In this document: positions 1 to 64,000 of the stretch, piece after piece | Numbering within the stretch: the stretch's first letter is position 1 | Layout: each line of letters starts with the position of its first letter | Assembly (NCBI RefSeq): GCF_044704955.1 | Contig: NC_091999.1 | Coordinates: 16,182,001 to 16,246,000 of the forward strand | Source of the DNA: Pristiophorus japonicus | Lineage: Eukaryota | Direction: 5' to 3' | DNA length: 64,000 bases | Program-made: the position numbers and the translations under genes | The notes under the pieces: generated by a model | The model's input: only the letters and a program-made list of their open reading frames with translations | The model's database searches: none | Told to the model about the DNA's origin: nothing

Positions 1-1808
1 ATTTACTCCTACTCTTTGCTTCCTGTCTGACAACCAGTTCTCAATCCATGTCAGCACACTACCCCCAATCCCATGTGCTTTAACTTTGCACATTAATCTC
101 TTGTGTGGGACCTTGTCGAAAGCCTTCTGAAAGTCGAAATATACCACATCAACTGGTTCTCCCTCGTCCACTCTACTGGAAACATCCTCAAAAAATTCGA
201 GAAGATTTATCAAGCATGATTTCCCTTTCATAAATCCATGCCAACTTGGACCTATCATGTCACCTATTTCCACATGCGCTGCTATGACATCCTAAATAAT
301 TTATTCCATCATTTTACCCACTACTGTGGTCAGGCTGACCGGTCTATAATTCCCTGTTTTCTCTCTCCCTCCTTTTTTAAAAAGTGGGGTTACATTGGCT
401 ACACTCCACTCGATAGGAACTGATCCAGAGTCTATGGAATGTTGGTAAATGACTGTCAATGCATCCGCTATTTCCAAGGCCACCGTCGTAGGTCCTCTGG
501 GATGCAGTCCATCAGGCCCTGGGATTTATCGGCCTTCAATCCCATCAATTTCCCCAACACAATTTCCCGACTAATAAGGATTTCCCTCGTTTCCTCCTTC
601 TTACTAGACCCTCTGACCCCTTTTATATCCGGAAGGTTGTTTGTGTCCTCCTTAGTGAATACCGAACCAAAGTACATATTCAATTGGTCTGCCATTTCTT
701 TGTTCCCCGTTATGACCTCCCCTGATTCTGACTGCAGGGGACCTACGTTTGTCTTTACTAATCTTTTTCTCTTTACATATCTATAGAAACTTTTGTAGTC
801 CGTCATAATGTTCACTGCAAGCTTCCTTTCGTACTCTATTTTCCCTGCCCTAATCAAATCCTTTGTCCTCCTCTGCTGAGTTCTAAATTTCTCCCAGTCC
901 CCAGGTTCACTGCTATTTCTGGCCAATTTGTATGCCACTTCCTTGGCTTTAATATTATCCCTGATTTCCCTGATAGCCACGGTTCATCAACCTTCCCTTT
1001 TTTATTTTTACACCAGACAGGGATGTACAATTGTCGTAGTTCATCCATGCGGTCTCTAAATGTCTGCCATTGCCCATCCACAGTCTACCCCTTAAGTATT
1101 ATTCGCAAATCCATCCTAGCCAATTCACCCTCATATCTTCAAAGTTACCCTTCTTTAAGTCCTGGACCATGGACTCTGAATTAATTGTTTCATTCTCCAT
1201 CCTAACGTAGAGTTCCATCATATTATGGTCACTCTTCCCCAAGGGGCTTCGCACAACGAGATTGCTAATTAATCCTCTCTCATTACATAAGACCCAGTCT
1301 AAGATGGCCTCCCCCCCTAGTTGGTTCCTCGACATATTGCTCTCGAAAACCATCCATTATGCACTCCAGGAAATCCTTCTCCACCGTATTGCTTCCAGTT
1401 TGGTTAGCCCAATCTATATGCACATTAAAGTCACCCATGATAAATGCTGCACCTTTATTGCATGCACCCCTAATTTCCTGTTTGATGCGTTCCCCAACAT
1501 CACTGCTACTGTTTGGAGGTCTGTACACAACTCGCACTAACGTTTTTTGCCCTTTGATGTTCTGCAGCTCTACCCATATATATTCCACATCATCCAAGCT
1601 GATGTCCTTCCTAACTATTGCATTAATCTCCTCTTTAACCAGCAATGCTACCCCAGCTCCTTTTCCTTTTATTCTTTCCTTCCTGAATGTTGAATACCCA
1701 TGGATGTTGAGTTCCCAGCCCTGATCATCCTGGAGCCACGTCTCCGTAATCACAATCATATCATATCCGTTAACATCTATTTGCACAGTTAATTCATCCA
1801 CCTTATTC
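1..1808 (-). mobile_element. CR1 LINE ORF2 fragment (APE endonuclease to RT), frameshifted, continues off the left edge
   Basis: ORFs contain NKVDEL...ITETWL, VYRPP, MGDFN, LGKSDH (endonuclease) and NVTPLFKKG...NYRPVSLT (RT). Confidence 0.95.
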
Positions 1809-1809
1809 A

Positions 1810-1932
1810 TCCTGCACTGCCACAGTACTGGCACCAGGCGTGTCGGTTTCGATTATCGGCTCAGCTCTCTCGAGCGGGGTTTAGTATCTGTGACCTTCTG
1901 AATCAGAGGCGAGAGTGATCCCACTGAGCCGA
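1810..1932 (-). mobile_element. DeuSINE (SacSINE1-like) 5' head, truncated by the CR1
   Basis: The minus strand reads GGCTCAGTGG...CTCGCCTCTGATTCAGAAGG (tRNA-derived head) and matches the full copies. Confidence 0.8.
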
Positions 1933-2309
1933 ATCTTGAACATATCACAGCTTGTATTTTAAAATGCTGCCATTCAGCTCATCATGTCTGAAGTCCAGGG
2001 TCTGAGCCCAGTCTTACACCGCTCCATTTATCATCAGGAGCGAGTTCTCTCATCTTGCCTGAGATATCATTACCACACTGTGATTTTCACTGTGTTCATA
2101 TAAAAGTGTCAGTGATTCCACAGGGAACATCTCGAAGTGCCCCAGGCAGAACGACTCACAGACTTAAGAGATTTATATTGTGTGAGCTGGATAATCAGAG
2201 CATCTGGAAGCTGGGACTGTTCTCCTCAGAGCCGAGCAAGTTATGGGCCATTTAATAGAGGTATTCAAAATCAGGAAAAGTTTTGATCGGGTAAATTGGG
2301 AGATAATTC

Positions 2310-2545
2310 ATCATTCCCTCTGACCACCCGCCTCTCCTTCTCTCCATTCCTTCATCACTCCATTTCTCTATCCCCCTCGCCCTCCATACCTGCCTCCATC
2401 AATCGCTCCCTCCTTGGACACACCTCTCCCTCCCTCCGTCCGCACTCCACCCATCCAATACACTACACCTCCCTTGCTCCACTCCTCCATTCCTCCATCG
2501 CTCCCTCCATCAATCGCTCACTCCGTGCACCCATCCCTACCTCCG
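2310..2545. repeat. C-rich (CCCT/CCAT) low-complexity tract
   Basis: Seen directly. Paralogous tracts are at ~6927-7160, 13015-13790, 23175-23400, 34455-34705, 48690-48880 and 58770-59090. Confidence 0.85.
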
Positions 2546-3313
2546 TCTCAGTTTATATTAAACTCGACCATGTCTCTGTTTATATTACACTAGGCACTGC
2601 ATCAGTTATTCCTGCCATAGACCATGGCTGAAATATATTATATAAATGCCTGTCTCTCTTCATATTACATTAGATCTTGTCTAAACTATTAGTGCGCTGG
2701 ACGCTGTCTGTATTTCTTATACTATCGACCCTGCTCAGTTATTTCAGCACTTGCACATGCGTCTGTTACATAGGCAGGAGATATACAGAGGGTTTGACAG
2801 ATATTAATATAAATAAATATGTATATATGTGTGGGTGTGAGGATGCAATACTTTTTTGTTTGGAAGTATATGCTTAGATTTGTTAACAGCTATCAGCACG
2901 TGTGTGCAATCTCTAATTGATCTGTTATTATGACGGTAATAATTGTGTTGAAAGGATGAGTGAATCTTGTAACAATCTTCCAGTAATGGATTGGGATTGA
3001 GGGACAGGACGGAAGGTGAGCAATTCACTGCACTTTGAACTACTGGCAAAATCTGTGGGCTTGAGGTTACTAATTCACACTTGTGTTGTCCTGTGCCTAT
3101 TTCTCCAAGTTCTTTAACGTTAAGGATTGTTTTTCATCCAGTATTTGACGTGACCCACTGATTATGTAGGACAGAGCCTGGAACCGTGATCTCAGAGCAC
3201 CTGCGGATGGGCGGCCACAGTGTCCTAATATCGACCGGAAAATATGTTCTCACCTTGTGAAATGAACAACTGAAAAGAGAACACAAAAGTGTTTGGTATA
3301 TGTTTATGTGTGT

Positions 3314-3456
3314 NNNNNNNNNNNNNNNNNNNNNNNNNNNNNNNNNNNNNNNNNNNNNNNNNNNNNNNNNNNNNNNNNNNNNNNNNNNNNNNNNNNNNNN
3401 NNNNNNNNNNNNNNNNNNNNNNNNNNNNNNNNNNNNNNNNNNNNNNNNNNNNNNNN
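3314..3456. other. N gap at a (TG)n microsatellite
   Basis: N run whose flanks match those of the TG tract at ~7915-8053 in the sister copy. Confidence 0.9.
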
Positions 3457-3559
3457 AATGTCTGCAAGTGCACTCCACAAAGACAAATGATTAGCTTCAG
3501 CTAATATTTTTCAGCATTTTACTTCATTCAAAATGCAATTGCAGGTCATTTAATAGCTT

Positions 3560-6427
3560 TAACATTTAAGATAGAAAGATAGAAGCATAGAAAATAGGTG
3601 CAGGAGTAGGCCATTCGGCCCTTCGAGTCTGCAACACCATTCAATGAGTTCATGGCTGAACATGCAACTACAGTACCCCATTCCTGCATTCTCGCCATAC
3701 TCCTTGATACCCCTAATAGTAAGGACTACATCTAACTCCTTTTTGAATATATTTACTGAATTGGCCTCAACAACTTTCTGTGGTAGAGAATTCCACAGGT
3801 TGACCACTCTCTGGGTGAAGAAGTTTCTCCTCATCTCGGTCCTAAATGGCTTACCCCTTATCCTTAGACTGTGAGCCCTGGTTCTGGACTTTTCCAACAT
3901 TGGGAACATTCTTCCTGCATCTAACCTGTCGAAACCCATCAGAATTTTAAAAGTTTCCATGAGATCACCCCCTCATTCATCTGAACTCCAGTGAATACAA
4001 GCCCAGTTGATCCACTCTTTCTTGATAGGTCAGTCCCACCATCCCAGGAATCAGTCTGGTGAACATTCGCTCCACTCCCTCAATAGCAAGAATGTCTTTC
4101 CTCAAGTTAGGAGACCAAAACTGTACACAATACTCCAGGTGTGGCCTCACCAAGGCCCTGTACAACTGTAGCAACTGCCCCAGTACTCAAATCCCCTCGC
4201 TATGAAGGCCAACATGCCATTTGCTTTCTTAACCGCCTGCTGTACCTGCATGTCAACCTTCAATGACTGTTGTACCATGACACCCAGGTCTCGTTACACC
4301 TCCCCTTTTCCTAATCTGTCAACATTCAGATAATAGTCTGTCTCTCTGTTTTTACCACCAAAGTGGATAACCTCACATTTATCCATATTATACTTCATCT
4401 GCCATGTATTTGCCCACTCACCTAACCTATCCAAGTCCCTCTGCAGTCTCATAGCATCCTCCTCGCAACTCACACTGCCACCCAACTTAGTGACATCCGC
4501 AAATTTGGAGATACTTCATTTAATCCACTCGTCCAAATCATTAATGTACAATGTAAACAGCTGGGACCGCTGCACAGAACCTTGCGGTACCCCACTAGTC
4601 ACTGCCTGCCATTCTGAAAAGTACCCATTTACTCCTACTCTTTGCTTCCTGTCTGACAACCAGTTCTCAATCCATGTCAGCACACTACCCCCAATCCCAT
4701 GTGCTTTAACTTTGCACATTAATCTCTTGTGTGGGACCTTGTCGAAAGCCTTCTGAAAGTCGAAATATACCACATCAACTGGTTCTCCCTCGTCCACTCT
4801 ACTGGAAACATCCTCAAAAAATTCGAGAAGATTTGTCAAGCATGATTTCCCTTTCATAAATCCATGCTAACCTCGACCTATCATGTCACCTATTTCCAAA
4901 TGCGCTGCTATGACATCCTTAATAATTTATTCCATCATTTTACCCACTACTGAGGTCAGGCTGACCGGTCTATAATTCCCTGTTTTCTCTCTCCCTCCTT
5001 TTTTAAAAAGTGGGGTTACATTGGCTACACTCCACTCGATAGGAACTGATCCAGAATCTATGGAATGTTGGTAAATGATTGTCAATGCATCCGCTATTTC
5101 CAAGGCCACCGTCGTAGGTCCTCTGGGATGCAGTCCATCAGGCCCTGGGATTTATCGGCCTTCAATCCCATCAATTTCCCCAACACAATTTCCCGACTAA
5201 TAAGGATTTCCCTCGTTTCCTCCTTCTTACTAGACCCTCTGACCCCTTTTATATCCGGAAGGTTGTTTGTGTCCTCCTTAGTGAATACCGAACCAAAGTA
5301 CATATTCAATTGGTCTGCCATTTCTTTGTTCCCCGTTATGACCTCCCCTGATTCTGACTGCAGGGGACCTACGTTTGTCTTTACTAATCTTTTTCTCTTT
5401 ACATATCTATAGAAACTTTTGTAGTCCGTCATAATGTTCACTGCAAGCTTCCTTTCGTACTCTATTTTCCCTGCCCTAATCAAATCCTTTGTCCTCCTCT
5501 GCTGAGTTCTAAATTTCTCCCAGTCCCCAGGTTCACTGCTATTTCTGGCCAATTTGTATGCCACTTCCTTGGCTTTAATATTATCCCTGATTTCCCTGAT
5601 AGCCACGGTTCATCAACCTTCCCTTTTTTATTTTTACACCAGACAGGGATGTACAATTGTCGTAGTTCATCCATGCGGTCTCTAAATGTCTGCCATTGCC
5701 CATCCACAGTCTACCCCTTAAGTATTATTCGCAAATCCATCCTAGCCAATTCACCCTCATATCTTCAAAGTTACCCTTCTTTAAGTCCTGGACCATGGTC
5801 TCTGAATTAACTGTTTCATTCTCCATCCTAACGTAGAATTCCATCATATTATGGTCACTCTTCCCCAAGGGGCTTCGCACAACGAGATTGCTAATTAATC
5901 CTCTCTAGTCTAGTCTAAGATGGCCTCCCCCCCTAGTTGGTTCCTCGACATATTGCTATCGAAAACCATCCCTTATGCACTCCAGGAAATCCTTCTCCAC
6001 CGTATTACTTCCAGTTTGGTTAGTCCAATCTATATGCATATTAAAGTCACCCATGATAAATGCTGCACCTTTATTGCATGCACCCCTAATTTCCTGTTTG
6101 ATGCGTTCCCCAACATCACTGCTACTGTTTGGAGGTCTGTACACAACTCGCACTAACGTTTTTTGCCCTTTGATGTTCTGCAGCTCTACCCATATATATT
6201 CCACATCATCCAAGCTGATGTCCTTCCGAACTATTGCATTAATCTCCTCTTTAACCAGCAATGCTACCCCAGCTCCTTTTCCTTTTATTCTTTCCTTCCT
6301 GAATGTTGAATAGCCATGGATGTTGAGTTCCCAGCCCTGATCATCCTGGAGCCACGTCTCCATAATCACAATCATATCATAGCCGTTAACATCTATTTGC
6401 ACAGTTAATTCATCCACCTTATTCATC
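3560..6427 (-). mobile_element. CR1 LINE, near-complete ORF2 plus 3' tail, 5'-truncated and disrupted
   Basis: Motifs in order: endonuclease, [69 protein letters not shown] (TTCTATG/C)n tail lies at ~3560-3590. Confidence 0.96.
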
Positions 6428-6548
6428 CTGCACTGCCACAGTACTGGCACCAGGCGTGTCGGTTTCGATTATCGGCTCAGCTCTCTCGAGCGGGGTTTAG
6501 TATCTGTGACCTTCTGAATCAGAGGCGAGAGTGATCCCACTGAGCCGA
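6428..6548 (-). mobile_element. DeuSINE 5' head, truncated
   Basis: Essentially identical to 1810-1932. Confidence 0.8.
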
Positions 6549-7914
6549 ATCTTGAACATATCACAGCTTGTATTTTAAAATGCTGCCATTCAGCTCATCA
6601 TGTCTGAAGACCAGGGTCTGAGCCCAGTCTTACACCGCTCCATTTATCATCAGGAGCGAGTTCTCTCATCTTGCCTGAGATATCATTACCACACTGTGAT
6701 TTTCACTGGGTTCATATAAAAGTGTCAGTGATTCCACAGGGAACATCTCGAAGTGCCCCAGGCAGAACGACTCACAGACTTAAGAGATGTATATTGTGTG
6801 AGCTGCAACATCAGAGCAGCTGGAAGCTGGGACTGTTCTCCTCAGAGCCGAGCAAGTTATGGGCCATTTAATAGAGGTGTTCAAAATCAGGAAAAGTTTT
6901 GATCGGGTAAATTGGGAGATAATTCATCATTCCCTCTGACCACCCGCCTCTCCTTCTCTCCATTCCTTCATCACTCCATTTCTCTATCCCCCTCGCCCTC
7001 CATACCTGCCTCCATCAATCGCTCCCTCCTTGGACACACCTCTCCCTCCCTCCGTCCGCACTCCACCCGTCCAATACACTACACCTCCCTTGCTCCACTC
7101 CTCCATTCCTCCATCGCTCCCTCCATCAATCGCTCACTCCGTGCACCCATCCCTACCTCCGTCTCAGTTTATATTAAACTCGACCATGTCTCTGTTTATA
7201 TTACACTAGGCACTGCATCAGTTATTCCTGCCATAGACCTAGGCTGAAATATATTATAATAAATGCCTGTCTCTCTTCATATTACATTAGATCTTGTCTA
7301 AACTATTAGTGCACTGGACGCTGTCTGTATTTCTTATACTATCGACCCTGCTCAGTTATTTCAGCACTTGCACATGCGTCTGTTACATAGGCAGGAGATA
7401 TAAAGAGGGATTGACAGATATTAATATAAATAAAGATGTATATATGTGTGGGTGTGAGGATGCAATACTTTTTTGTTTGGAAATATATGCTTAGATTTGT
7501 TAACAGCTATCAGCACGTGTGTGCAATCTCTAATTGATCTGTTATTATGACGGTAATAATTGTGTTGAAAGGATGAGTGAATCTTGTAACAATCTTCCAG
7601 TAATGGACTGGGGTTGAGGGACAGGACGGAAGGTGAGCAATTCACTGCACTTTGAACTACTGGCAAAATCTGTGGGTTTGAGGTTACTAATTCACACTTG
7701 TGTTGTCCTGTGCCTATTTCTCCAAGTTCTTTAACGTTAAGGATTGTTTTTCATCCAGTATTTGACGTGACCCACTGATTATGTAGGACAGAGCCTGGAA
7801 CCGTGATCTCAGAGCACCGCCAGATGGGCGGCCACAGTGTCCTAATATCGACCGGAAAATATGTTCTCACCTTGTGAAATGAACAACTGAAAACAGAACA
7901 CAAAAGTGTTTGGT

Positions 7915-7977
7915 ATATGTTTATGTGTGTTTGTGTGTCTGTCCGTTTGTGTGTTTATGTGTGTGTGTGTGTGTGTT

Positions 7978-8011
<34 letters not shown>

Positions 8012-8030
8012 TGTATGTGTGTGTGTGTGT
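7915..8030. repeat. (TG)n microsatellite
   Basis: Seen directly. Paralogues are at ~30095-30160, 44160-44280, 54435-54470, 63485-63502 and the two N gaps. Confidence 0.95.
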
Positions 8031-8370
8031 ACAAAACACTTGCACACATTCATAATGTCTGCAAGTGCACTCCACAAAGACAAATGATTAGCTTCAGCCA
8101 ATATTTTTCAGCATTTTACTTCATTCAAAATGCAATTGCAGGTCGTTTAATAGGTTTAACATTTATTGATAACCCATTCTCTTGCGTGCTCTTGTTTAGA
8201 ATGATGTCACTCTGGCCATTCTGTTACCAAGGTGACCATTTCTGTCCGCAGTATTCAGTGTGAAACGGGATTAAATCACACCGAGGATAATGAGCAACCA
8301 AACGCCAGTCTCTGCGCTTTATCGTCTAGTGATCACCTCAGCATCACCCAGAAAACTCTGATATACACCT

Positions 8371-8874
8371 TGAGGGAGTGCAGCCAAAGTTCACCAGACT
8401 GAATCGCGGGATGGCAGGACTGACATATGCAGAAATATTGGATTGACTAGCCTTATATTCGCTGAAATTTAGAAGAATGAGAGGGGATCTCAGAGAAGCA
8501 TATGAAATTCTGACGGGATTGGACAGGTTAGATCTTGGAAGAATGTTCCTGATGTTGGGGAAGTCCAGAACCAGGAGTCACAGTCTAAGGATAAGGGGTA
8601 AGTCATTTACGACAGAGATGAGGAGAAACTTCTTCACCCAGAGAAGTGTGAACCTGTGGAATTCTCTACTACAGTAAGTTGTTGAGTCCAGTTCGTTGCA
8701 TATATTCAAAAGGGAGTTAGATGTGAACTTTACGGCTAAAGGGATCAGGGGGTATGGAGAGAAGACAGGAGTGGGGTACTGAAGTTGTTTGATCAGCCAT
8801 GATCATATTGAATGGTGCTGCAGGCTCGAAGGGCCGAATTGCCTGCTCCTGCACATATTTGCTATGTTTCTATG
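8371..8874 (+). mobile_element. CR1 3' fragment, copy-specific insertion
   Basis: MRGDL...GRMF...RRNFFTQR..NLWNSL with a 'tatgtttctatg' tail. It interrupts sequence that is contiguous in other units (e.g. ~19620-19640). Confidence 0.92.
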
Positions 8875-9014
8875 ATTAGTGCCCATGATGGTAAAAATGA
8901 AACTGCACTTGTACCTGGCAGGAGGTTAATAAATCTCTAATTATCTGGCATTATTACTTTCACTACACCAGACCCCGTCGCAGTATTTACCCAGTCGTAG
9001 TTTATAAGGTTGAT

Positions 9015-9915
9015 GTGGTGGACTTCTAAAAGTTGTTTGATAAAGTGCCTTAATAATATCCTTGCCATAAAAATTTAAACCCACAGAATTAAGAGAACAG
9101 TGGCAGCATGATGTACATAATTGGCGGAGTGACAGGAACCACAGAGTAGTGGTGACCAGTTATTTTGTGTTGGACTGGGGGAAGGAATACTGTGGTATTC
9201 TGCAGCGATTGGTACTAGGAACACTGCGTTTCTTCATTTATATTCATGACTTAGACTTAGGAGTACAGGGTAAAATTTCGAAATTTGTAGATGATACAAA
9301 ATTTGGAAGTAGATGTGAACAGTGAGGAGATAGTGATGACTTCAAGATGACATAGACATGCTGGTAGAATGGGCACACTCGTGGCAAATGAAACGGAGAA
9401 AAGTGTGAAATGAATCACTTTGATAAGACGAATGAGGAGAGGAAAAATAAACTAAAGTGTACAATGTTAAAGGAGGTGCATGAACACAGTGACCTGATGG
9501 TATATGTGCACAAATCATTGAAGGTGGCAGGGCCGGTTGAGACAATGGTCAATAGCTTACATGATGCTGGGCTTCGTAAATACACGCATAGAGTACAAAA
9601 GAAAGGAAGTTATGATGAACGTTTATAAAACACTGGTTAAGCCTCACCTGGAATATTGTGTCCAATTCTTTAGCAAGGATGTGAGGCCTTAGAGAGGATT
9701 CAGAAAAGATTTACAATTATGGTTCCAAGGATACGGTACTTCGGTTATGTGGATAGCCTGGAGAAGTTGGAATTTTTCTCCTTAGAGCTGAAAGGTAGAG
9801 ATGAGATTTCAAAGAAGTGTTCAGAATCATAAGGGGTCTAGATAGAGTAGGTAGAGAGAAACTGTTCCCATTGGTGGGAAGATCGAGAACAAAGGACACA
9901 GAGTTAAGGTGATTA
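9015..9915 (+). mobile_element. Old CR1-type RT/3' remnant inherited with the unit
   Basis: Degenerate DFxKxFDKV, KFVDDTK and PHLEYCVQF motifs. Paralogues are at ~19790-20900, 30625-31752, 44775-45915 and 54950-56052. Confidence 0.85.
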
Positions 9916-9917
9916 GC

Positions 9918-10504
9918 TGATTGGAAAACTACAAATTTAATGCTCCTATTTGCAAAAGGATGCAGGCAAAAAGCAGGAAACTATAAACCAGTTCGTCTAA
10001 CATCTGCGCTTGGGAAAATGTTGGAGTCCATTATTAAAGAAGCAGTGGCAGGATATTTGGAAAAGCAAAATTCGGTCAGGCAGAGTCAGCGTGGATTTAT
10101 GAAGGGGAAGTCATGTTTGACAAATTTTCAGGAATTCTTTGAGGAGGTAACAAACAGGGTGGGTAAAACGGAACCAGTGGCTGTGATGTATTTGGGCTTC
10201 TAGAAGGCATTTGATAAGGTGCCACATAAAAGGTTACTGCACAAGATAAACATTCACGGGGTTGGGGCTGATATATTAGCATGGATAGAGGATTAGCTGA
10301 CTAACAGAAAACCGAGAGTCAGGATCAAAGGTTCATTCTCGGGTTGGCATTCAGTAACTAGTGGGATGCTGCAGGGATCAGTGCTGGGAACCCCTCTATG
10401 TACAATCTACCGACGTTGAAGAATGCATCGAGAGCAACATAGCCAGGTTTTCTGATGATACAAAGATGGGAGAAAAAGCAATGTGTGACGAGGACACAAA
10501 AAGA
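9918..10504 (+). mobile_element. CR1 RT internal fragment, copy-specific
   Basis: GNYKPVRLTS...GKSCLTN...AFDKVPHKRLL...FSDDTK. Confidence 0.88.
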
Positions 10505-10564
10505 CTCCACTACACTACAGTAGACCCATCTCAAGTTTATTTTACCCCATCCACCACATTAAAT

Positions 10565-10962
10565 AATCCCTCCCACCCCCAACGGCGCACCATGTCTGCA
10601 GTGATTAAAACCCCCAAGATGCTTTGCAGCAACTCGCCAAGATATCCTTGACAGCCCTTTCCACACCTGCGACCTCTTCCACCAAGAAGAACAAGGGCAG
10701 CGTGCTCATGGGAACACCATCACCTCCGTGTATCCCTCCAAATCACACATCATCCTGACTTAGGAACTTATTACCGTTCCTTCATAGTCGCTGGGTCAAA
10801 TTTTGGAACCCGCTACCAAACAATGTGGAGGTCCCTTCATAACATGGACTGCAGCGGTTCAAGGGGCAGCTTACCATTTGCTTATCAAGGCCAATTAGGA
10901 ATAGACCATCAATGTTTGCCTTGCCAGCGACACCCACACCCATATGCCAAAAGCGAATAAAG
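10565..10962 (+). mobile_element. 3' end of a second elasmobranch CR1-like LINE family
   Basis: 'aactcgccaag...agaaggacaagggcagc...catgggaacaccatcacctcc...gccttgccagcgacaccc...aataaa' tail. It recurs at ~31830-32230, 45995-46390 and 56130-56525. Confidence 0.7.
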
Positions 10963-11237: not shown

Positions 11238-11525
11238 AACTTCCAGGCCAGGTTCAGCATGTGTTAGATACAGAGTAAAGCGCTCTCTACACCGCACCAT
11301 CAAACATTCTCATGCCAGGTACAGCATGTGTCAGGTACAGAGTAAAGTGCCCTCTATACTACCTCATCACATACACCCAGGGCAGGTAGAGTATGGGTTA
11401 GATACAGAGAAAAACTCCCTCAACACTACCCCATCAAACACTCCCAGGGCAGGTACATCATATGTCAGATACAGAGTAAAACTCCCTCTGCAATGTCCCA
11501 TCACACACTCCCAGGGCAGGTACAA
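11238..11525. repeat. 67-bp minisatellite (ACTCCCAGGGCAGGTACAGCACGGGTTAGATACAGAGTAAAGCTCCCTCTACACTGTCCCATCAAAC)
   Basis: Unit starts at ~11240, 11307, 11374, 11441 and 11508 give a period of 67. Confidence 0.9.
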
Positions 11526-12209
11526 CTTTAAGCATAAACCTCCTCTATCACATTAGTGATTTTGCTGTACATGCTGACGAGAAGGAGTATTTCCCCATTC
11601 TGTCCGTGGGTATCATCTTTCCTTTATTCTAATAAAATTTAGTGAAATATACCAAAACACAATTGTTGCTGGAGTCTGTTGAGAGATTTGCATTTCTGTC
11701 TATCTTTATTTCAATGCTGTGTTGGTGAAGAAACATTCATGGTGTCTCTGATGCTCAGTACTCTAATCTGGGACATCTATTTCTGTGATTATTTGCATAA
11801 AGGCCTCAATGGTTCCTACGAAGTGTTCATGGCAGCAAAATCATGACAACAGAGTCACTTATTGATTAGTCTCAACTCACAACAATGGCTTATTTGAAGA
11901 ATATTGACAGTGGGTACACAGAAGTAGCAATATGTCGAACAGTGACGTTGGCTTCAGTTTTGTTCAATTAGAACAGATGTGATTTATATCAAAGGAAATA
12001 AATATTAAAATGAATAATTCAGTTCTGAAAGTTCTGCAGCTGAAATCAGTGGAACATCTCTGAACATGCTGCTATTCCACTGGATCTCCATTTCGTGGAA
12101 GATTTAACCCATTGAAACTAAACAAGTTCAACCAGTGACCATCAGTAATATCTGAGCGTTTCACATATCGCACCTTGTATTTAAAAATATTAACATTTAG
12201 AAAAAACTA

Positions 12210-12645
12210 GCATTTATATCGCGCCCTTCGTGACCTCATAATGTCCCAAATGCTTTAAATCCAATTAATTACTTTGGAAGTGTTGTAATGTAGGAAATGT
12301 GGCAGCCAATTTGTGCAGAGCAGGATCCCATACACAGCAATGAAATAATGATCAGATAATCTGTTTTGCAGAAATTGTTTGAGGGACAAATGTTTTCCGT
12401 GGAAACCCTGAAGAACTCCTCAGCTGTTTAAGATAGTGCAATGAATCCTTTAAATCCACCTGAGTGGAAAAATGGGGCCGCAGTTTAATGTTTGCCCCGA
12501 AAGACGGCAGCTCTGTCCGTGCAGCACTCCCTCAGTACTTGCAGCGGTCATGTCGGCATAGATTATGGGCTCAGTTCTCTGGAGTGTGGTTTAGCATCTG
12601 TGACATTCTGAGTCGGAGGCGAGAGTGATCCCACTGAGCCAAGGC
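12210..12645 (-). mobile_element. Full-length tRNA-derived DeuSINE (SacSINE1-like)
   Basis: Minus strand shows a tRNA-like head GGCTCAGTGG, then AGTACTGAGGGAGTGCTGCAC, a Deu-like core GCCGTCTTTCGG..ATTAAAC, and a 3' tail ...GGCGCGATATAAATGC. Confidence 0.87.
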
Positions 12646-12787
12646 TTGAACATATCACAGCTTGCATTTAAAGTGTTGTCATTCAGTTCATCCTGCCTGA
12701 AGTTCAGGGCCTGAGCCTAGTCTTACTTCGATCCGCTTATTATCACGGGCGAGTTCTCTGATCTTGCCTGGGATGTCATTCCCACAC

Positions 12788-12840
12788 TGGGGTTTCCACC
12801 GGGTCGATATAAAAGTGACAGCGATTCCACAAGGAACATC
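12788..12840 (+). promoter_or_regulatory. Candidate Pol II core promoter: kB-like site, TATA box and CA initiator
   Basis: TGGGGTTTCC at 12788-12797, TATAAAAG at 12808-12815, and the A of a CA dinucleotide at 12838, exactly 30 nt from the TATA start. TATAAAAG is also intact at 2099, 6715 and 22970. Confidence 0.3.
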
Positions 12841-13268
12841 TGGAAGTGCCCGAGGCAGAAGGAGTCACGGAACTTGAGTTTTACACTGTGTGAGCTGCAC
12901 CATCATGGCAGCTGGAAGCTAGGATTGTTCTCCTTAGAGCCGAGCAGGTTATGGGCCACTTATCAGAGGTGCTCAAGAATATGAAGAGTTTTGATCGGGT
13001 AAAATGGGAGATACTCCATCACTCCCTCCCAATATACTTCCCTCCCACCACACGTCTCTCCTTCCCTCCCATCCATCATCCCTCCCTCCCTCCATCCCTC
13101 CCACCCTCCACCGTCTCACCTTCCCACCCTCCCTTCATCACTCCCTCCCACCATCCGTGTCACGCTCCTTCCATTTCCAGCCCTCCATACCTCCATCCCT
13201 CCCTCCATCAATCTCTCCCTCCCCGCACCCATCCCTCCCACTCTCCGACCATCCCTCCACCTCATTAC

Positions 13269-16820: not shown

Positions 16821-16829
16821 ATATTTTTA

Positions 16830-16935: not shown

Positions 16936-16954
16936 TCATTGCACTTCACAAGAA

Positions 16955-18415: not shown

Positions 18416-19097
18416 CTAATGTTACAATGTCTGTTTGTGTCAGCCGAGGCTCAGCGTGTCTCACTTCGCTCCGGTCTCAGATGGTTTTGGGATAAACTCC
18501 CACTCCAATGAATATATCTCTATTTATTGCACAACACACCCTGTCTCCGTTATTTCTGCGTCTGTTAGATAGGCAGAAGATATATAGACGGTGGATAGAT
18601 ATTAATAAAAATAAAGATATATATGTGTGTGGGTGGGAATATTCAATACTTTTTTGGTTAAAACATATGTTTAGTTTCACTAATAGGTAACAAGAGTTGT
18701 GGGCAATGTCGAAATGATCTGGCATTGTGTCGGTAATATTTGTGTTGAGAGGATGGGGTGAATCTTGTAACAATCTCCCAGAGATGGACTGGGATTGAGG
18801 GACAGGACTGAAGGTGAGCAATTCACTGCACTTTGCAATACTTAGTGGCACTCTGTGTGTTAACGGTTACTAATTCACACTTGTGTTGTACTGTGCCAAT
18901 TGCTCCCAGTTCTTTAATGTTAAGGATTGTTTTTCCTGCAGTATTTTCTATTGAGCTTTCACATGGCACACTGATTGTGACAGACAGAGCCTGGAACCGT
19001 GACCTCACATCACCGCCGGATGGGCGGCCGCAGGGTCCAAACATCCACCGGAAGAACAACTCATCTGCTTAAGACGAACAACTGAAAAGAGCACACA

Positions 19098-19299: not shown

Positions 19300-19789
19300 T
19301 CATTCATAAGGTGTGCAAGTGCATTTCACAAAGATAAATTATTAGCTCCAACCATTATTTTTCAGCATTTTATTTTATTCAACAGCTAATTGCAGATCGT
19401 TTAATACCTTTAACATTTATTGATAACACATTGTCTTGAGTGCTCTTCTTTAGAAAGTGATGTCACACTGACCATTGCATTACCAAGGTGACCATGTCTG
19501 TCCGCAGTATTCAGTGGGAAAGTGGATTAAATCACACCGAGAATAATGAGCAGCCAGGCACCAGTCTCTGTGCTTTATTCTCCAGTGATCACCTCACCAT
19601 CACACAGAATCCGCAGATATACACCTCAAGTGTATGATTATTGGTGCAAGTGATGGTAAACATGAAACTGCACCTGTACCTGGCATGAGATTAATAAATC
19701 TGTAATTATCTGACTTATTGTCTCTCTCATTACACTAGATCCCATCGCAGTTTTTACTGCAGTAGACCCAGTCTCAGTTTATATAGTTG

Positions 19790-20900
19790 ATGTGATGAAC
19801 TTCCAAAAGGCATTTGATAAAGTGCTTTGATAATATCCTTGCCAGAAAAGTTAAATCCCATAGAATAAAAGGGACAGTGGCATCATGGATATGAAATTGG
19901 CTGAGTGACAGGAATCAGAGAGCTGTGGTTTTGTTTGGTCTGGAGGAAGGTATACATTGGTGTTTCGCAGCGGTTGGTACTAGGAACACTGCTTTTCTTG
20001 ATTTATATTCATGACCTAGATTCGGGTGTACTCGGTACAATTTCAACATTTTCAAACGATTCAAAGCTTGGAAGTTTAGTGAACAGTGAGGAGAGGAGGA
20101 TAGTGATGACTTCAAGAGGACAGCAACATGCTGGTGGAATAGACGGACACGTGGCAAATGGAACGCAGAAAAGTGTGAAGTTATACATTTTGGTCGGAAG
20201 AACGAGGAGATTAAAATTAACTAAAGGGTACAGTACTAAAAGCTGTGATGAACTCAGGGACCTGGGGGTATATATGCAAAAGTATTTGAAGGTGGCAGGG
20301 CTGGTTGAGAAAGTGTTTTAAAAAAACATATGGGATCCTGGGCTTCATAAATAGAGGCATATAATATATAAGCAAGGAAATTATGATGAACCTGTGTAAA
20401 ACACGGTTTCGGCCTCAAGCTATTACTGTGTCAAATTCTGGGCACCGTACTTTAGGAAGGATGTGAACGTCTTAGAGAGGGTGCAGAAAAGATTTCCCTG
20501 TGGTTCCAGGGATAAGGTACTTCAGTTATGTGGATTGACTGGAGTAGCTGGGGTTGTTCTCCTTAGAGCAGAGAAGTTTGAGATGAGACTTGATAGAGGT
20601 GTTCAGAATCATAAGGGGTCGAGACAGAGCAACTGGAGAGAAACTGTTCCCATTGGCGGAAGGGTCGAGAACAGAGGATACAGATTTGTCGCATTGGCAG
20701 AACAACCTAAATCGACACGAGGAAAACTTAGGATCTGGAATGCACTGCCTGAAAGAGTGGTGGAGACAGATTCAATCATGGCATGGAATTGGATAAGTTC
20801 CTGAAGGAAGAACAATCACAGGGCTACGGAAAAGGGCGGGGAGTGGACTAGCTGAAATACTCTTGCAGAGAGCGGCATGGTCTATATGGGCCGAATGACT
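19790..20900 (+). mobile_element. Old CR1-type remnant (unit module)
   Basis: LVLGTLLFLIYIHDL, FSNDSKLG, LERVQKRF, IWNALPERVVE. Confidence 0.85.
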
Positions 20901-39900: not shown

Positions 39901-40101
39901 ATTCAGAATAAAAAATAATTAATAACATACATGCATAGAATGTTGTATATCTTCATATACTGTGATTAATAAAATGTTTTTAAAATTTTCTGAAACTTGC
40001 TTATTTTAACCTGTGTTCACCTTTTAATCCCTTCAAGTGTGCCACCAAAAATTCTAGTATACAAAAGTGTGTCGCGAACACAAAAAGGTTGAGAACCACT
40101 G
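36954..40101 (+). mobile_element. hAT DNA transposon, Charlie/Buster group, full length (3148 bp)
   Basis: 15-bp TIRs CAATGGTTCTCAACC (36954) and GGTTGAGAACCACTG (40087-40101). 8-bp TSD GTTTAGAT (36946-36953) / GTTTAAAT (40102-40109). Empty site 'gtttagatagagtaaat' at ~25630 and ~60047. Subterminal GTGTGCC repeats. Confidence 0.96.
37999..39837 (+). pseudogene. Buster/Charlie-type hAT transposase (ZBED5/ZBED8/SCAND3-like), frameshifted
   Basis: Fragments in order: MDKFIIRKRK; QYIEDYLRFTF..PLCVC (BED finger); KSHTVAE..IPLSDDII; FAVQIDVST; MDGAQSMVG; CLLHREAL; YIKSRPL; LLLHTEVGWLSRGKVL; EFW..EYPAISKKAL; QAQVSH-stop. Confidence 0.92.
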
Positions 40102-42422: not shown

Positions 42423-42424
42423 TT

Positions 42425-43445
42425 GTTTATATTACACTAGGCACTATCTTTGTTGAAATTGCACTAAACCTTGTCGTTGTTTAATTACATTAGGCCCTGT
42501 CTCTGTTAATATTACACTAAATCCTGTCGTTCTTTATATTGCACTGCGCCCTGTCTATCTTTATATTGCACTAGGCCCTGTCTCTAGTTATATGACACTA
42601 GACCCTGTCTCCCTTTATGTTGCACTAGACCCTGTCTCTCTTTCTGTTACACTAGACCCTGTCTCTGTTTGTATTACACTGGACTCTGTCTCTCTTTATA
42701 TTTCACGAGGCCCTGTCTCTCTTTATATTACACTGGACCCTGTCTCTCTTTATATTGCACTAGGCACTGTCTCTGTTTATATTACACTAGACACTGTCTC
42801 CCTTTATGTTCCACTAGACCCTGTCTCTCTTTATGTTACATTAGACCCTGTCTCCCTTTCTGTTACACTAGGTCCTGTCTCTGTTTATATTACACTAGGC
42901 CCTGTCTCTGTTTATATTACACTAGACCCTGTCTCTTATTATATTACACTGGGCCCTGTCTCTCTTGATATTACTCTAGGCCTTGTCTCTCTTTATATTA
43001 CACTAGACCCTGTCTCTGTTTATATTACACTAGGCCCGGTCTCTGTTTGTATTACTCGAGACCCTGTCTCTGTTTATATTGCACTAGACCATGTCTCTCT
43101 TTATATTGCATTGGGCCCTGTCTATCTTTATATTACACTAGACGTTGTCTCTGTTTAAATTACACTAGACCCTGTCTATATTTATATTTCACTAGACCCT
43201 GTCTCAGTTTATATTACACTGGGCTCTGTATCTGATTATATTACACTAGATCCTTTCTATCTTTATATTACACTAGACCCTGTTTCTCTTTATATTACAC
43301 TCGACCCTATCTCTTATTATATTACACTGGATCCTGTCTCTCTTTATATTACACTAGGCCCTGTCTCTGTTTAGGTTGCACTCGACCCTGTCTCCCTTTA
43401 TGTTACACGAGGCCCAGTCTGCCTTTATGGTAAACTGGGCCATGT
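42425..43445. repeat. 27-bp minisatellite, long array (~1 kb)
   Basis: ORF 42592..43158 consists of YITLDPVSL/V repeats. Confidence 0.95.
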
Positions 43446-52150: not shown

Positions 52151-52275
52151 TGTTATTCTATAACTACATCATGTCTAGGTTCATATTACACTAAGACCCG
52201 TCTCTATTTATAAAACACTAGATCCTGCCGCAGTTATTATTGCAATGGACAAGGAATCTTTTTAAATCACGCTAG

Positions 52276-56799: not shown

Positions 56800-57078
56800 T
56801 AACTCACAGGGCGTGTACAGCATGTGTCAGATCCAGAGTAATGCTAACGTTACACCGTTCCATCAAACACTCCCAGGGTAGGTACAGCTCGGGTTAGATA
56901 CAGAATAAAGCTCTCTGTCCCACTGTCCCATCAAACATTCCCAGGGCAGGTACGGCACGGGTTAGATACAGAGTAAAGCTCCCTCTACACCGTTCCATCA
57001 AACATTCCCAGCGCCGGTACAGCACGGGTTAGATACAGTGTAAAGATCTCTCTACTTTGTCCCATCAAAAACTCCCAG
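56800..57078. repeat. 67-bp minisatellite array
   Basis: About 4 copies. Confidence 0.88.
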
Positions 57079-57957: not shown

Positions 57958-58398
57958 TTGCAGCGACTTTCCTGACCTCATGTTGTCCCAAACAGCTTTA
58001 CAGCCAATTATTTTTTCCGGAAGTGTGGTCACTGTTGTAATGTAGGAAAGGTGGCAGCCAATTTATGCACAGCAAGATCCCACAAACACCAATGAAATAA
58101 TGATCGGATAATCTATTTATCAGATGTTGGTTGAGGGATAGGTTTTTGCGCGGGAAACCGTGGAGAACTCCTCTGCTCTTTAGGATAGTACCATTAGTCC
58201 TTTATATCCAGCTGAGTGGGAAGCTGGGGCCTCAGTTTAATGCCTGCCCCAAAAGACGGCACATCTGACCATGCAGCATTCCCTCAGTACTGGCATCGGA
58301 TGTGTCAGCACAGCTTAAGGGCTCAGGTCTCTGGAGTGGGGTTTAGTATCTGTGACCTTCTGAGTCAGAGGCGAAAGTGATCCCACTGAACCGAGGCT
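57958..58398 (-). mobile_element. DeuSINE (SacSINE1-like)
   Basis: Paralogue of 12210-12645. Confidence 0.87.
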
Positions 58399-59549
58399 TG
58401 AACATATCACAGATTGTATTTTAAAATGTTGCCATTCAGCTCATCGTGTCTGAAGTTCAAGACCTGAGCCCAGTCTTACACCGCTCCATTTATTATCAGG
58501 GGCGAGTTCTCTTATCTTGCCTGGGATGTCATTCCCACACTGGGATTTCCACTGGGTCGAAATAAAAGTGTCAGCGATTCCGCAGGGTACATCTGGAAGT
58601 GCCCGAGGCAAAAGGACTCACGGAACTTGAGTTTTACAATGTGTGAGCTGCACAATCAAAGTAGCTGGAAGCTGGGAGTGTTCTCCTTAGAGCCGAGCAG
58701 GTTATGTGCCACTTAATTGAGGTGCTAAAAATTATGAAGAGTTTTGATCGGGTAAACTGGGAGATATTACATCACTCCCTCCTACCATCCCTTCCTCCAT
58801 CCACCCGTATCTCCTTCCCTCCCTCCCTTCATCCCTCCTTCCCTTCATCCCAGCATCCCCCCTCCCATCAATCGCTCCCTCCCTGGATCCACCGCTCCCT
58901 GCCTCTGTCCACACTAAACCCATTCTTCACATCAATCCTCCCTTGCTCCACTCCCCCCTTCCTCAATCCCTCCCTACATCAATCACTCCCTCCCTGCACC
59001 CATCCCTCCCTCCGTCCATTCCCACCACCCCTCCATCACTCCACCCCTACTTGCTCCACTCGTCCGTCCCTCCATCCCTCCCTCAGCCCAACAGATTCTT
59101 ATTTTTCCCTTTTGAGTGTTTCTGATTCCATCGATGAGGATTCCTCACCTGGAATTTTCTGCACCCAATTCCTTCACCGGGCTTTCATATATATTAAAAA
59201 ATAAAAGAGCGAGCGATGGCAAATATTTATATTTAACCTCCCACCACCTCCCCACCTAAAAAGACTGACAAGAAATGAAATGGTGACCTTTCCGGAGAGG
59301 GAGTTGGCTGGGGAACTGGCACCGGGTAGAAGTTCTAGCTGGGGCAGTGAGGATACCTTTTCTGCTTATAAATTAAATAAATAAGGGTAACAGTTTGAAA
59401 AATTGTTTTTAGACATCCGCGACTTTCAGCTGCTCCTTTTTCCTGCCCCTTCTCGCTATTGAAGATGGGCCAGTTCCTGCCTGGAGCTCGATGACATTGT
59501 GTGTACTGGAAGGTAGGACGCAAGCTCTCGTTACACGGACATCTTGTAG

Positions 59550-62040: not shown

Positions 62041-62041
62041 A

Positions 62042-62300
62042 GTTTATATTACACGAGGCAATGTCTCCGTTTTTAATACACTATACCTTGTCCATGTTTA
62101 TATTACACTAGACCCTGTCTTTGTTTAAATTTCACTACATCATGTCTCTGTTTATATTACACTACGCCTTGTCTGCTTAAATTTCACTGGGCTCTGTCTC
62201 TGTTTAAATGACACTATAACCTGTCTCTGTTTATATTACACGAGGCCCTGTATCCTTTGATGTTACACTTGGCCCTGTGTCGCTTTATGTTACACTGGGC
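62042..62300. repeat. 27-bp minisatellite array
   Basis: Diverged tatattacactagaccctgtctctgtt units. Confidence 0.88.
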
Positions 62301-62494
62301 CATATATCCATTGCGCTTCACAGGAAAATGTTTGTTTGTGTGAGACGATGCTCAGTATGTCTCACTTTTGTCTCGGTCTCAGATATTTTTGGGATAAACA
62401 CCCACTCCAGGCTCTATATTTCAATTTATTGCACAACGGACCCTGTCTCAGTTATTTCGGCACTTGACCATGCGTCTGTTAGCTAGACAGAAGA

Positions 62495-62939
62495 CCATCA
62501 TTATAGGCAGTTGCTCGGAATCAAGGGAGACTTGCTTCCACTCTTAAAATCAGTTCTTAGGTGGCTGAACAGTCCAATTACAGGAATTACAGTCTCTGTC
62601 ACAGTGGGACAGATAGTCATTGAAGGAAGAGATGGGTGGGAATGGTTTGCCATGCGCTCTTTCCACTGCCTGCACTTGATTTCTGCATGCTCTCCGCGAT
62701 GAGACTCCAGTAGCTCAGCACCCTCCCGGATGCACTTTCTCCACTTAGCACGGTTTTTGGCCTGGGACTCTCAGGTGTCAGTGGGGATGTTGCACCTTAT
62801 CAGGGAGGCTTTGAGCGTGTCCTTGTAACGTCCGCGACCAGGCCAACATCCCCAACATTGAAGAACTGACCACACTTGATCAGCTCCGCTGGGCAGGCCA
62901 CATAGTTTGCATGCCAGGACACGAGAATGCCAAAGCAAC
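62495..62939 (-). mobile_element. RTE-clade LINE 3' fragment with an inverted 5' segment and TSD
   Basis: Minus 62830-62495 reads RYKDTLKASLIRCNIP..WRKCIREG..ICPT..IGLFSHLRT plus an ATG-type tail. Plus 62831-62939 reads DQANIP..DQLRWAGHIV. TSD ACAGAAGA at 62487-62494 and 62940-62947. Confidence 0.88.
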
Positions 62940-63500
62940 ACAGAAGATATATAGACGCTGGAGAGATATTAATATAAATAAAGATATACATGTGTGTGGG
63001 TAGGAGGATGCAATACTTTTTTGGTTGGAACATATGTTTCGATTCCTTAACAGCTATCAAAGGTTGTGTGCAATGTCTAATTGATCTGGTGTCATGTCGT
63101 TAATATTTGTGCTGAAAGGATGGAGTGAATCTTGTAACAATCTCCCAGAGATGGACTGGTATTGAGGGACAAGACTGAATGTGGGCAATAGTGCACTGCA
63201 CTTTGCACTACTTAGTGGCACACTGTGTGTTAAAGGTTACTAATTAACACTTGTGGTGTGCTGTGCCAATTTCTCTCAGTTAATTAATGATAAGAATTGT
63301 TTTTCCTGCAATATTTTCTCTGGAGCTGTCACGTGACCCACTGGTTGTGTCAGATGGAGCCTGGAACCGTGACCTCACAGCACCACTGGATGGGCGGCCT
63401 CAGGGTCCTAATGTCTTCAAAAACTGTATCGCTCATTTGGTTAAGATGAACAACTGAAAATAGCACACACAAAGTGTTCGCTATATGTGTCTGTGTGTGT

Positions 63501-64000
63501 GTACCTTTTCAGAGAGGCGTTGAGGGTGTCCTTGTAACGCTTCCAGTGCCCACCTTTCGCTCGTTTGACGTGAGTTCCGAGCAGAGTGCATGCTTTGGGA
63601 GTCTAGTGTCTGGCATGCGAACAGTGTGGCCTGCCCAGCGGAGCTGATCAAGTGTGGTCAGTGCTGCAATGATGGGGATGTTGGCCTGGTCGAGGACGCT
63701 AACGTTGGTGCGTCTGTCCTCCTAAGAGATTTTCAGGATCTTGCGGAAACATCGTTGGTGGTATTTCTCCAGCGGCTTGAGGGTTCTACTCGACATGGTC
63801 CATGTCTCTGAGGCATACAGCAGGGCCAAAGACAAAAGACTGCCCTATGTGGAGGAAGTGCATGCGGGAATGTGCCGAGCACCTCGAGTCTTATCGCTGA
63901 GAGCATGCAGAAAGCAAGCACAGGCAGCGGAAAGAACGTGCGGCAAACCTGTCCCACACCACGTCGCCCCTTTCCCTCAACGGCTCTCTGTCCCACCAGT
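63501..64000 (+). mobile_element. Second RTE-clade LINE with an inverted 5' segment, runs off the right edge
   Basis: Minus 63825-63501 reads LLYASETWT..HQRCFRKIL..QLRWAGHTVRMPDTRLPK..KRYKDTLNASL. Plus from ~63825 reads WRKCMRECAEHLE..RQRKERAAN..LCPT. Confidence 0.86.

What the first reader, a model, noticed from the sequence alone, without database searches (positions are those of the whole stretch)
1..64000. Whole window is an old 10-14-kb macro-tandem array with an unexplained unique core
Seen: seven copies of one modular unit, with SINE-head spacings of about 4.6, 6.1, 10.2, 11.3, 14.2 and 10.1 kb. Length differences are mostly explained by copy-specific insertions and deletions. About 2.5-3 kb per unit matches no TE or gene I recognise (blocks near 11560-12200, 12650-12900, 13800-14215, 18420-19700). 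Inference: this is either a neutral macrosatellite or an amplified, unannotated gene or lncRNA family. No recognisable protein drives it.
Basis: partly seen in the sequence, partly recalled or inferred. Interest (0 to 1): 0.7.

Follow-up and report, generated by a model that had tools for sequence, protein, structure and literature searches.

The report
Frozen repeat array beside shark IgM
This is a real, old run of roughly 10-kb repeats built from transposon scraps and spacer DNA; it sits just upstream of a shark-type antibody (IgM) gene here and at most other places where it occurs, shows no sign of coding for a protein, and was likely carried along as a passenger when an antibody-plus-zinc-finger block was duplicated dozens of times.

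Summary
The array is real and the reported spacings are exact. It extends beyond the window (about -17 to +71 kb). The 2.4-kb 'unique core' is not an orphan. Blocks U4-U5 also occur singly downstream of C2H2 zinc-finger genes on other contigs. Blocks U1-SINE-U2 also occur as a diverged edge copy 6-9 kb upstream of IgM VH promoters. An IgM minicluster with open exons lies head to head, its start codon 21 kb left of the window. 43 of 62 array loci share this layout (29 of 40 on the main contig; chance 2). Neighbouring units differ by 13-18%, yet same-position units in other arrays can differ by under 1%: an old tandem expansion froze and then travelled inside an IgM/zinc-finger duplication. Core and transposon blocks diverge alike, no frame shows coding constraint, and no protein or RNA family matched. 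One ~60-base stretch evolves at half rate. Expression is untested. The IgM lead came from an earlier scan note; this array was not noted before, though a similar duplicated IgM flank was noted in another genome. Verdict: passenger DNA of a known kind, useful as a marker of IgM cluster multiplication.

The parts
1..64000 (+). Central part of a tandem array of about 88 kb (about -17 kb to +71 kb in window coordinates), all units on the + strand
1..4626 (+). Second copy of a young 4.6-kb triplication (CR1 piece, SINE tail, U2, U4, start of U5; U3 and LINE part deleted)
   Evidence: 98.25% to 4627-7930; three copies also at C23:47.6 Mb, C3501 and C4133, one copy at 17.7, 21.8 and 27.8 Mb
4627..10935 (+). 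Third triplicate copy, running on into U5 (split by a CR1 insertion at 8370-8872), the LINE piece and the first SINE
11540..12200 (+). U1, unique AT-rich block (also 21678-22349, 32966-33631, 47211-47869, 57277-57950); a diverged copy marks the array edge 6-9 kb upstream of IgM VH promoters
12200..12640 (-).
   Evidence: dispersed copies in unrelated contexts
12642..12905 (+). U2, unique block with a TATA-like word (7 copies in the window); an edge-type copy stands alone upstream of an IgM gene on contig C19, an array-type copy lies among zinc-finger genes on C9
13771..14217 (+). U3, unique block (also 23388-23842, 34690-35149, 48864-49315, 59071-59541); seen only in arrays
18440..19097 (+). 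U4, zinc-finger spacer block that follows a 27-bp tract (also 2706, 7319, 29420, 43480, 53844, 62344-63475)
18741..18800 (.). Slowly evolving ~60-base core of U4 (also near 2944, 7561, 29721, 43795, 54083, 63108); about half the expected substitutions
19300..19710 (+). U5, zinc-finger spacer block (also 30171-30568, 44292-44690, 54492-54856; partial at 3458 and 8055)
19790..20890 (+). LINE relic shared by all units; used as neutral control
42426..43428 (+). Largest 27-bp minisatellite tract (37 copies); such tracts precede U4 in each full unit (16830, 29016, 53325, 62042) and lie at both ends of the array
11239..11524 (+). 67-bp minisatellite in front of U1 (also 21217, 32561, 46730, 56802)
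36954..40100 (+). Copy-specific decayed hAT-like DNA transposon
   Evidence: Dimer_Tnp_hAT E 0.0012, below the curated cut-off; inverted ends and near-perfect 8-base target duplication

Best explanation
The array is non-coding flank DNA lying head to head, 5' of a shark-type IgM minicluster: a roughly 10-kb mosaic of zinc-finger spacer (U4-U5), IgM-upstream DNA (U1-SINE-U2) and transposon relics that likely expanded long ago by unequal crossing-over, stopped homogenising, and was then likely copied as a passenger inside a zinc-finger/IgM block. Shown: the unit anatomy; the origin blocks occurring outside arrays; the IgM linkage and its orientation; the two-level history (old differences between neighbours, near identity between same-position units of different arrays); equal divergence of core and transposon blocks; array length ranging from an edge copy alone to one unit to about nine. 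Inferred: unequal crossing-over at the 27-bp tracts as the engine, the direction of capture (spacer into array), and absence of function. One short stretch of U4 probably carries a cis-element inherited from the zinc-finger spacer.
For: Equal rates: non-CpG distance 0.134-0.172 in 7 unique segments against 0.128-0.160 in 5 transposon segments; observed/expected changes 0.86-1.05 against 0.94-1.03. No coding signal: pN/pS 0.58-1.71 over 43 open frames against 0.54-1.23 over 18 SINE frames. Two-level history: in a tree of 63 U1 copies each of the five window units groups with units of other arrays rather than with its neighbours, at under 1% for three of them; neighbours differ by 13-18%. IgM linkage: V, four C1-set exons and a membrane exon on the minus strand left of the window; 43 of 62 array loci have an IgM membrane exon on their 5' side and opposite strand within 120 kb, 0 of 62 on the same strand, 29 of 40 on C23 against a null mean of 2.2, maximum 9 in 5000; 13 of 13 exact VH-leader matches have a unit block upstream on the other strand. 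Zinc-finger origin: of 18 non-array U4/U5 sites, 15 have a same-strand finger exon upstream within 9.5 kb, 11 a convergent one downstream, 0 an opposite-strand one upstream; array and non-array U4 fall on two sides of one branch (28 against 20 rows, support 80/94). A nine-finger gene 73 kb left co-duplicates with the array. 37 of 80 IgM membrane-exon matches have no recorded array.
Against: The U4 core evolves at about half rate: pooled p 0.027 in 14 array copies, and 13 changes in 60 columns against 158 in 341 in 13 non-array copies, p 0.006; it did not replicate in 4 further array copies (O/E 0.81, p 0.15). U5 has a weaker island (p 0.065). The array has stayed beside IgM at a near-constant 48-53 kb from the membrane exon even in diverged lineages, which passive linkage explains but selection could too. 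Sites in the zinc-finger tally and the IgM tally are paralogues, not independent events. Equal sequence rates do not exclude a role for length or chromatin state. The 37 IgM matches without an array may include arrays that my capped searches missed. Branch support for the U4 split is moderate and the tree has no outgroup.
Confidence: 0.75

Rival explanations
1. The array is a regulatory platform for its IgM minicluster: repeated upstream units set the chance that a cluster opens for rearrangement, or shield the VH promoter from neighbouring zinc-finger heterochromatin.
For: Fixed head-to-head position in 43 of 62 loci; edge U1 sits 6.3-8.8 kb from a VH promoter in 20 of the 40 best hits; an edge-type SINE-U2 lies 12 kb upstream of a VH on another contig; half-rate U4 core. 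PMC2435157 (passages) proposes that limited promoter-enhancer assembly decides which shark IgH locus rearranges.
Against: No excess of CTCF-like (10 against 11.2 by chance), kappaB-like (1 against 7.8) or octamer (4 against 4.2) words (motifs recalled). U1 and U2 have no slow window. 37 of 80 IgM matches lack a recorded array. The slow core belongs to the zinc-finger half, not the IgM half.
Confidence: 0.1
2. The unit is an amplified spliced lncRNA, or untranslated zinc-finger exons, with exons in U2, U3, U4 and U5.
For: U2 has a TATA-like word followed by a GT donor-like site; U3, U4 and U5 have pyrimidine-rich AG sites; U4 has a donor, a 126-base intron-like stretch and an acceptor; the slow U4 core ends at that donor.
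Against: The T of the U4 donor is changed in 48% of 21 non-redundant copies and the acceptor bases vary like background. No spliced-junction copy in the genome (0 matches). No Rfam match at gathering score; at loose threshold only low-score hits, mostly on the TG tract. Cores fold no better than shuffles (6 of 6).
Confidence: 0.09
3. The unit is a non-autonomous transposon (rolling-circle or foldback type) that inserted in tandem.
For: Head-to-tail order, modular build, 27-bp tracts at the borders, some in inverted orientation outside arrays.
Against: Copies are not dispersed at random: they sit beside IgM in one orientation, and the two halves occur apart in gene-linked settings. No transposase of the unit's own was seen.
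Confidence: 0.04
4. The unique core encodes an unannotated short-exon protein family.
For: U1 has a 94-codon frame open in the consensus and 93-115 codons in three window copies; a 40-46 codon frame in U4 is open in four copies.
Against: pN/pS 0.94 for the U1 frame and 0.73 for the U4 frame, within the SINE control range. No Pfam hit above a curated cut-off in unique-block frames; no database relatives; no usable Atlas hit. These blanks are weak evidence on their own.
Confidence: 0.02

Closest known systems
Elasmobranch IgM minicluster (VH-D-D-JH-Cmu); PMC2435157 passages, PMC12227049 section 6 and passages
   Same: The neighbouring gene has leader, V, J, four C1-set exons and a membrane exon in about 15 kb; 80 exact matches to a membrane-exon pattern in this genome, in the 15-200 range given for sharks; clusters widely spaced.
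   Different: The passages I read describe the genes, not the DNA between clusters. Here a large share of clusters carries an upstream 10-kb-unit array and lies among zinc-finger genes.
Zebrafish chromosome 4q zinc-finger region (Wells et al. 2023, PMC10547256; passages)
   Same: A chromosome region rich in tandem C2H2 zinc-finger genes, transposons and immunity genes, with rapid copy turnover.
   Different: Different lineage; the immune gene here is IgM; no FiNZ domain was looked for; the feature is a non-coding array riding in the duplicated block.
Macrosatellites such as D4Z4, DXZ4 and RS447 (recalled; D4Z4 seen only in a search listing)
   Same: Multi-kilobase head-to-tail units, variable unit number, copies at several loci.
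   Different: Units are 13-18% apart and not homogenised, carry private transposon insertions, and hold no conserved ORF.
Segmental duplications with cargo, including core duplicons (recalled; search listing only)
   Same: A block of at least 200 kb copied many times at 90-100% identity, in both orientations, with internal deletions.
   Different: No transcribed, positively selected core gene was found in the array; the likely selected cargo is IgM and zinc-finger genes.

Membership tests
Macrosatellite | Head-to-tail units of several kilobases | tested here: met
Macrosatellite | Units homogenised within an array (concerted evolution; criterion recalled) | tested here: not met
   Neighbours 13-18% apart; nearest relatives lie in other arrays. 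Only the 4.6-kb triplicate is homogeneous.
Macrosatellite | Variable unit number | tested here: inconclusive
   Differs between loci (edge only, one unit, about nine); variation between individuals not testable.
Segmental duplication | Blocks over 1 kb at 90% identity or more at several loci (criterion recalled) | tested here: met
   U1, U2, U5 and the flanking zinc-finger gene at 98-100% in several loci with matching offsets
Tandem protein-coding gene family | Conserved open frame with pN/pS well below 1 | tested here: not met
Tandem protein-coding gene family | Known domain or homologues | tested here: not met
   (limited sensitivity)
lncRNA or structured RNA family | Transcription with conserved splice sites | tested here: inconclusive
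   Splice-like sites are not conserved and no junction copy was found; RNA reads could not be examined.
lncRNA or structured RNA family | Rfam match or stable fold | tested here: not met
Immunoglobulin enhancer or insulator array | Enriched, conserved B-cell factor or CTCF sites | tested here: not met
   simple consensus words only
Immunoglobulin enhancer or insulator array | Activity in B cells | not testable with these tools
   needs chromatin or reporter data
Known repeat family (Dfam/Repbase) | Match to a curated consensus | not testable with these tools
Rolling-circle or foldback transposon | Defined termini and empty sites | not tested
   only the non-random placement was examined
Elasmobranch IgM minicluster (the neighbour) | Leader, V with recombination signal, J, four constant exons, membrane exon on one strand | tested here: met
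   two separate D segments were not resolved, and the isotype call rests on exon number and recalled IgM motifs

The most novel reading that the evidence does not exclude
A large lineage of shark IgM miniclusters carries its own upstream tandem array, from none to about nine units, that tunes how often each cluster is opened for rearrangement: a copy-number dial for locus choice among dozens of independent antibody genes, built from zinc-finger spacer DNA with one conserved 60-base element per unit.
Probability: 0.08. Interest if true: 0.75.

Novelty: new member of a known kind. Interest (0 to 1): 0.3.

Why it matters
As passenger DNA it is ordinary, but it records how IgM miniclusters multiplied in this genome: unit number, private insertions and the young triplication order the duplications of more than 40 IgM-linked blocks, and show that antibody clusters spread inside zinc-finger territory. 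How shark IgH clusters are distributed and how one is chosen per B cell are open questions in the papers read (PMC12227049, PMC2435157). Clusters with none, one or many units are a ready natural comparison for testing whether upstream DNA affects cluster use.

Tried and rejected
RNA evidence: no RNA holder listed for 53850-60400, so no reads were laid; this says nothing on expression. tRNA scan 0. Rfam 0 at gathering score; 6 sub-threshold hits in one unit. Protein searches blank. A zinc-finger relic inside the unit: none by tblastn or by leader and 3' UTR probes. Similarity of U blocks to the IgM gene body or VH promoter: none. TCR-type decamer in U5 as a VH promoter relic (motif recalled): the word occurs in 3 window copies but varies like background. 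Apparent conservation of U5, U3 and U2 cores was partly caused by how loci were picked; redone on sets not picked on U4 or U5. Assembly artefact for the 98% duplicate: rejected, since three other loci hold the triplication at 97-99%. The one-unit locus at C23:23.13 Mb as the ancestral state: left open, because its first U4 already carries the array-specific SINE-head junction and may be a contraction. Absolute dating: 0.085 changes per site per lineage over the epaulette shark rate of 7e-10 per generation (PMC10587355, passages) gives 1.2e8 generations, too old to accept at face value, so I call the expansion old but undated. Literature searches listed no paper on this array; the library lacks most subscription journals, and I read no supplements. 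The curated elasmobranch repeat set of bioRxiv 10.1101/2025.06.08.657570 (passages read) might hold these blocks.
Full report
Observation. The window is a tandem array, as described. Self-alignment, block searches and profile mapping give one fixed order per unit: 27-bp minisatellite, U4, TG tract, U5, a LINE piece, a SINE, 27- and 67-bp repeats, U1, a second SINE, U2, a CR1 piece, a CTCC tract, U3 and a longer LINE piece. Five units are full and differ by 13-18% over U1-SINE-U2 (10 pairs). The first two are truncated 4.6-kb copies at 98% identity. Neighbouring DNA shows a third such copy, a further unit and a diverged edge unit on the left, and one more unit on the right, so the array spans about -17 to +71 kb. 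Private insertions explain the long units, including a hAT-like element at about 36954-40100. SINE, CR1 and hAT labels rest on translations, one sub-threshold Pfam hit and recall; no repeat library was available.

Is the unique core under constraint? Mostly not. Among copies in and beside the window, non-CpG distance is 0.134-0.172 in seven unique segments and 0.128-0.160 in five transposon segments. With 7-19 non-redundant genome copies per block, divergence from consensus is 0.069-0.097 against 0.068-0.103 (U2 is biased low because many loci were picked on it). Tree-based counts corrected for base context give observed/expected 0.86-1.05 for U1-U5 and 0.94-1.03 for three transposon blocks. 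All 43 open frames of 30 codons or more in U1-U5 have pN/pS 0.58-1.71, against 0.54-1.23 for 18 frames in SINE controls. Pfam, two protein searches and the Atlas gave nothing for unique-block frames, nor did Rfam or folding. Splice-like sites exist but are not kept: the U4 donor T is changed in 48% of 21 copies, and no spliced-junction copy was found in the genome.

One exception. A 60-base stretch of U4 (window about 18741-18800) changes at half the expected rate in 14 array copies not picked on U4 (O/E 0.53; p 0.027 against all 4420 columns pooled). With the window fixed, 13 non-array copies repeat this (13 changes in 60 columns against 158 in 341, p 0.006). Four further array copies did not (O/E 0.81, p 0.15). 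A similar island in U5 is weaker (p 0.065). I read this as a probable cis-element inherited from the source spacer; low local mutability or gene conversion are alternatives.

Where the core comes from. U4-U5 occur without the rest of the unit on contigs C2, C9, C11, C20 and elsewhere. At 18 such sites (two array units on C2167 dropped), 15 have a same-strand C2H2 finger exon upstream within 9.5 kb, 11 a convergent one downstream, 4 a same-strand one downstream and none an opposite-strand one upstream. They are typically the spacer between two tail-to-tail zinc-finger genes; these sites are paralogues, so the count is descriptive. Array and non-array U4 copies fall on two sides of one branch (28 and 20 rows, support 80/94, no outgroup). 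The unit itself holds no finger exon, leader or 3' UTR. U1-SINE-U2 occur as a diverged edge copy: 20 of the 40 best hits lie 6.3-8.8 kb upstream of a VH promoter on the other strand, and 31 of 40 have a VH promoter or a membrane exon so placed. On contig C19 an edge-type SINE-U2 lies 12 kb upstream of a VH that is 82% identical, with no other unit block in the 20 kb read. An array-type SINE-U2 also lies among zinc-finger genes on C9, so this half may itself come from zinc-finger territory. U3 was seen only in arrays.

The IgM link. An earlier scan note (e1-8659256) placed IgM exons on this contig; I then tested the window's own flank. Left of the window, on the minus strand, lie a leader (start codon about -21.4 kb), an open V exon followed by a heptamer-like signal, a J, four constant exons and a membrane exon at about -36.5 kb (V-set and C1-set hits). 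The array begins about 4 kb upstream of the start codon and points away. From 126 U1, U2 and U3 coordinates I formed 62 array loci. 43 have an IgM membrane-exon match (80 exact matches) on their 5' side and opposite strand within 120 kb, 2 on the 3' side, none on the same strand. On C23 this is 29 of 40 against a null mean of 2.2 (maximum 9 in 5000 placements). All 13 exact VH-leader matches have a unit block upstream on the other strand. Conversely 37 of 80 membrane-exon matches have no recorded array. Both lists are lower bounds from capped or exact searches. Of four array-free IgM sites sampled, two returned a VH (C19, C3) and two did not.

History. In a tree of 63 U1 copies the base is largely unresolved, and each window unit groups with units of other arrays, not with its neighbours. 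Forty array loci lie between 14.7 and 64.1 Mb of C23. A nine-finger gene 73 kb left of the window and a U5 remnant 64 kb right of it recur at 98-100% beside several of these arrays, so the duplicated block is at least 200 kb; 11 of 12 fetched copies of the finger gene keep a 264-codon open frame. The 4.6-kb triplication is present three times at three other loci and once at three more, so it arose between duplications. Array length ranges from an edge copy alone in the 7 kb read (66.1 Mb) to one full unit (23.1 Mb) to about nine. Both ends of the array and each unit border lie at 27-bp tracts. The simplest mechanism, inferred, is: capture of spacer DNA 5' of an ancestral IgM cluster, a burst of unequal crossing-over at the 27-bp tracts, loss of homogenisation as private transposons accumulated, then repeated duplication of the whole IgM/zinc-finger block.

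Rivals. A regulatory array for IgM (0.10) fits the fixed position but finds no support in motif counts (CTCF-like 10 against 11.2, kappaB-like 1 against 7.8, octamer 4 against 4.2) or in constraint on the IgM-side blocks. A lncRNA (0.09) cannot be excluded without RNA. A transposon (0.04) and a protein family (0.02) fit poorly.

Comparison with what is known. IgH miniclusters of sharks are well described (PMC2435157, passages; PMC12227049, outline, section 6 and passages); the latter says their genomic distribution is not well known. Zinc-finger, transposon and immunity-gene regions are known from zebrafish chromosome 4q (PMC10547256, passages). The array works like cargo in a segmental duplication and is a member of that class; it fails the homogeneity test for a classical macrosatellite. 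My searches listed no description of this array, within a library that lacks most subscription journals; no supplements were read. The scan held no note on this place or sequence; a note from another genome describes old duplicated IgM upstream DNA (e1-9921575, unchecked).

Verdict. Real, accurately observed, and largely explained: an old, frozen, non-coding array riding upstream of IgM miniclusters. New member of a known kind; interest 0.3. The bold reading, a copy-number dial on IgM cluster use, is not excluded (0.08) and is directly testable.

Noticed in passing
L018:8561 to L017:3326, minus strand (about -21 to -37 kb from the window start): IgM-type minicluster with open V and constant exons; only one D-like signal and a J preceded by extra bases were seen, so it may be partly joined in the germline. 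The copy at C23:46.48 Mb (L344) has a V frame that runs on into D-like sequence.
   Followed up: partly
L013:7329-8120 and L015:5469-5993: C2H2 finger genes left of the IgM cluster; the nine-finger gene is open in 11 of 12 fetched copies, with different finger sets in the more distant ones.
   Followed up: partly
L027-L030 (about +130 to +160 kb): Endogenous retrovirus-like gag, pol and env frames in two inverted copies right of the array; observed only.
   Followed up: no
window 36954-40100: Decayed hAT-like transposon with inverted ends and an 8-base target duplication, private to one unit.
   Followed up: partly
window 12160-12200 and 12645-12690: The end of U1 and the start of U2 are copies of one 40-60 base stretch on either side of the shared SINE, so U1 and U2 were probably once contiguous.
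   Followed up: partly
L027:3690-4450 and at least 39 further hits at 94% or more: A separate family of U4-end plus U5 pieces beside zinc-finger remnants, mostly on C23, with short CCCTTTAA-type ends that recall Kolobok termini (recalled, untested).
   Followed up: partly
L164:270-410: Fragments resembling U2 snRNA inside a CpG-rich zinc-finger-type promoter on C9 (recognised from recall, not tested).
   Followed up: no
L257 and L255:1-4100 (C20): Multi-kilobase C/T-rich minisatellite directly after U5 in zinc-finger spacers.
   Followed up: no
L327:4200-9690 (C20): A 27-bp minisatellite tract of over 5 kb running straight into a truncated U4.
   Followed up: partly
window 49800-52270: A 27-bp tract and unique DNA inside unit five with no counterpart in other window units; minus-strand self-hits near 49800.
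   Followed up: no
window 62500-62930 and 63510-64000: Insertions in the last U4 that are related to each other in inverted orientation and recur in the flanks; probably a small dispersed repeat.
   Followed up: no
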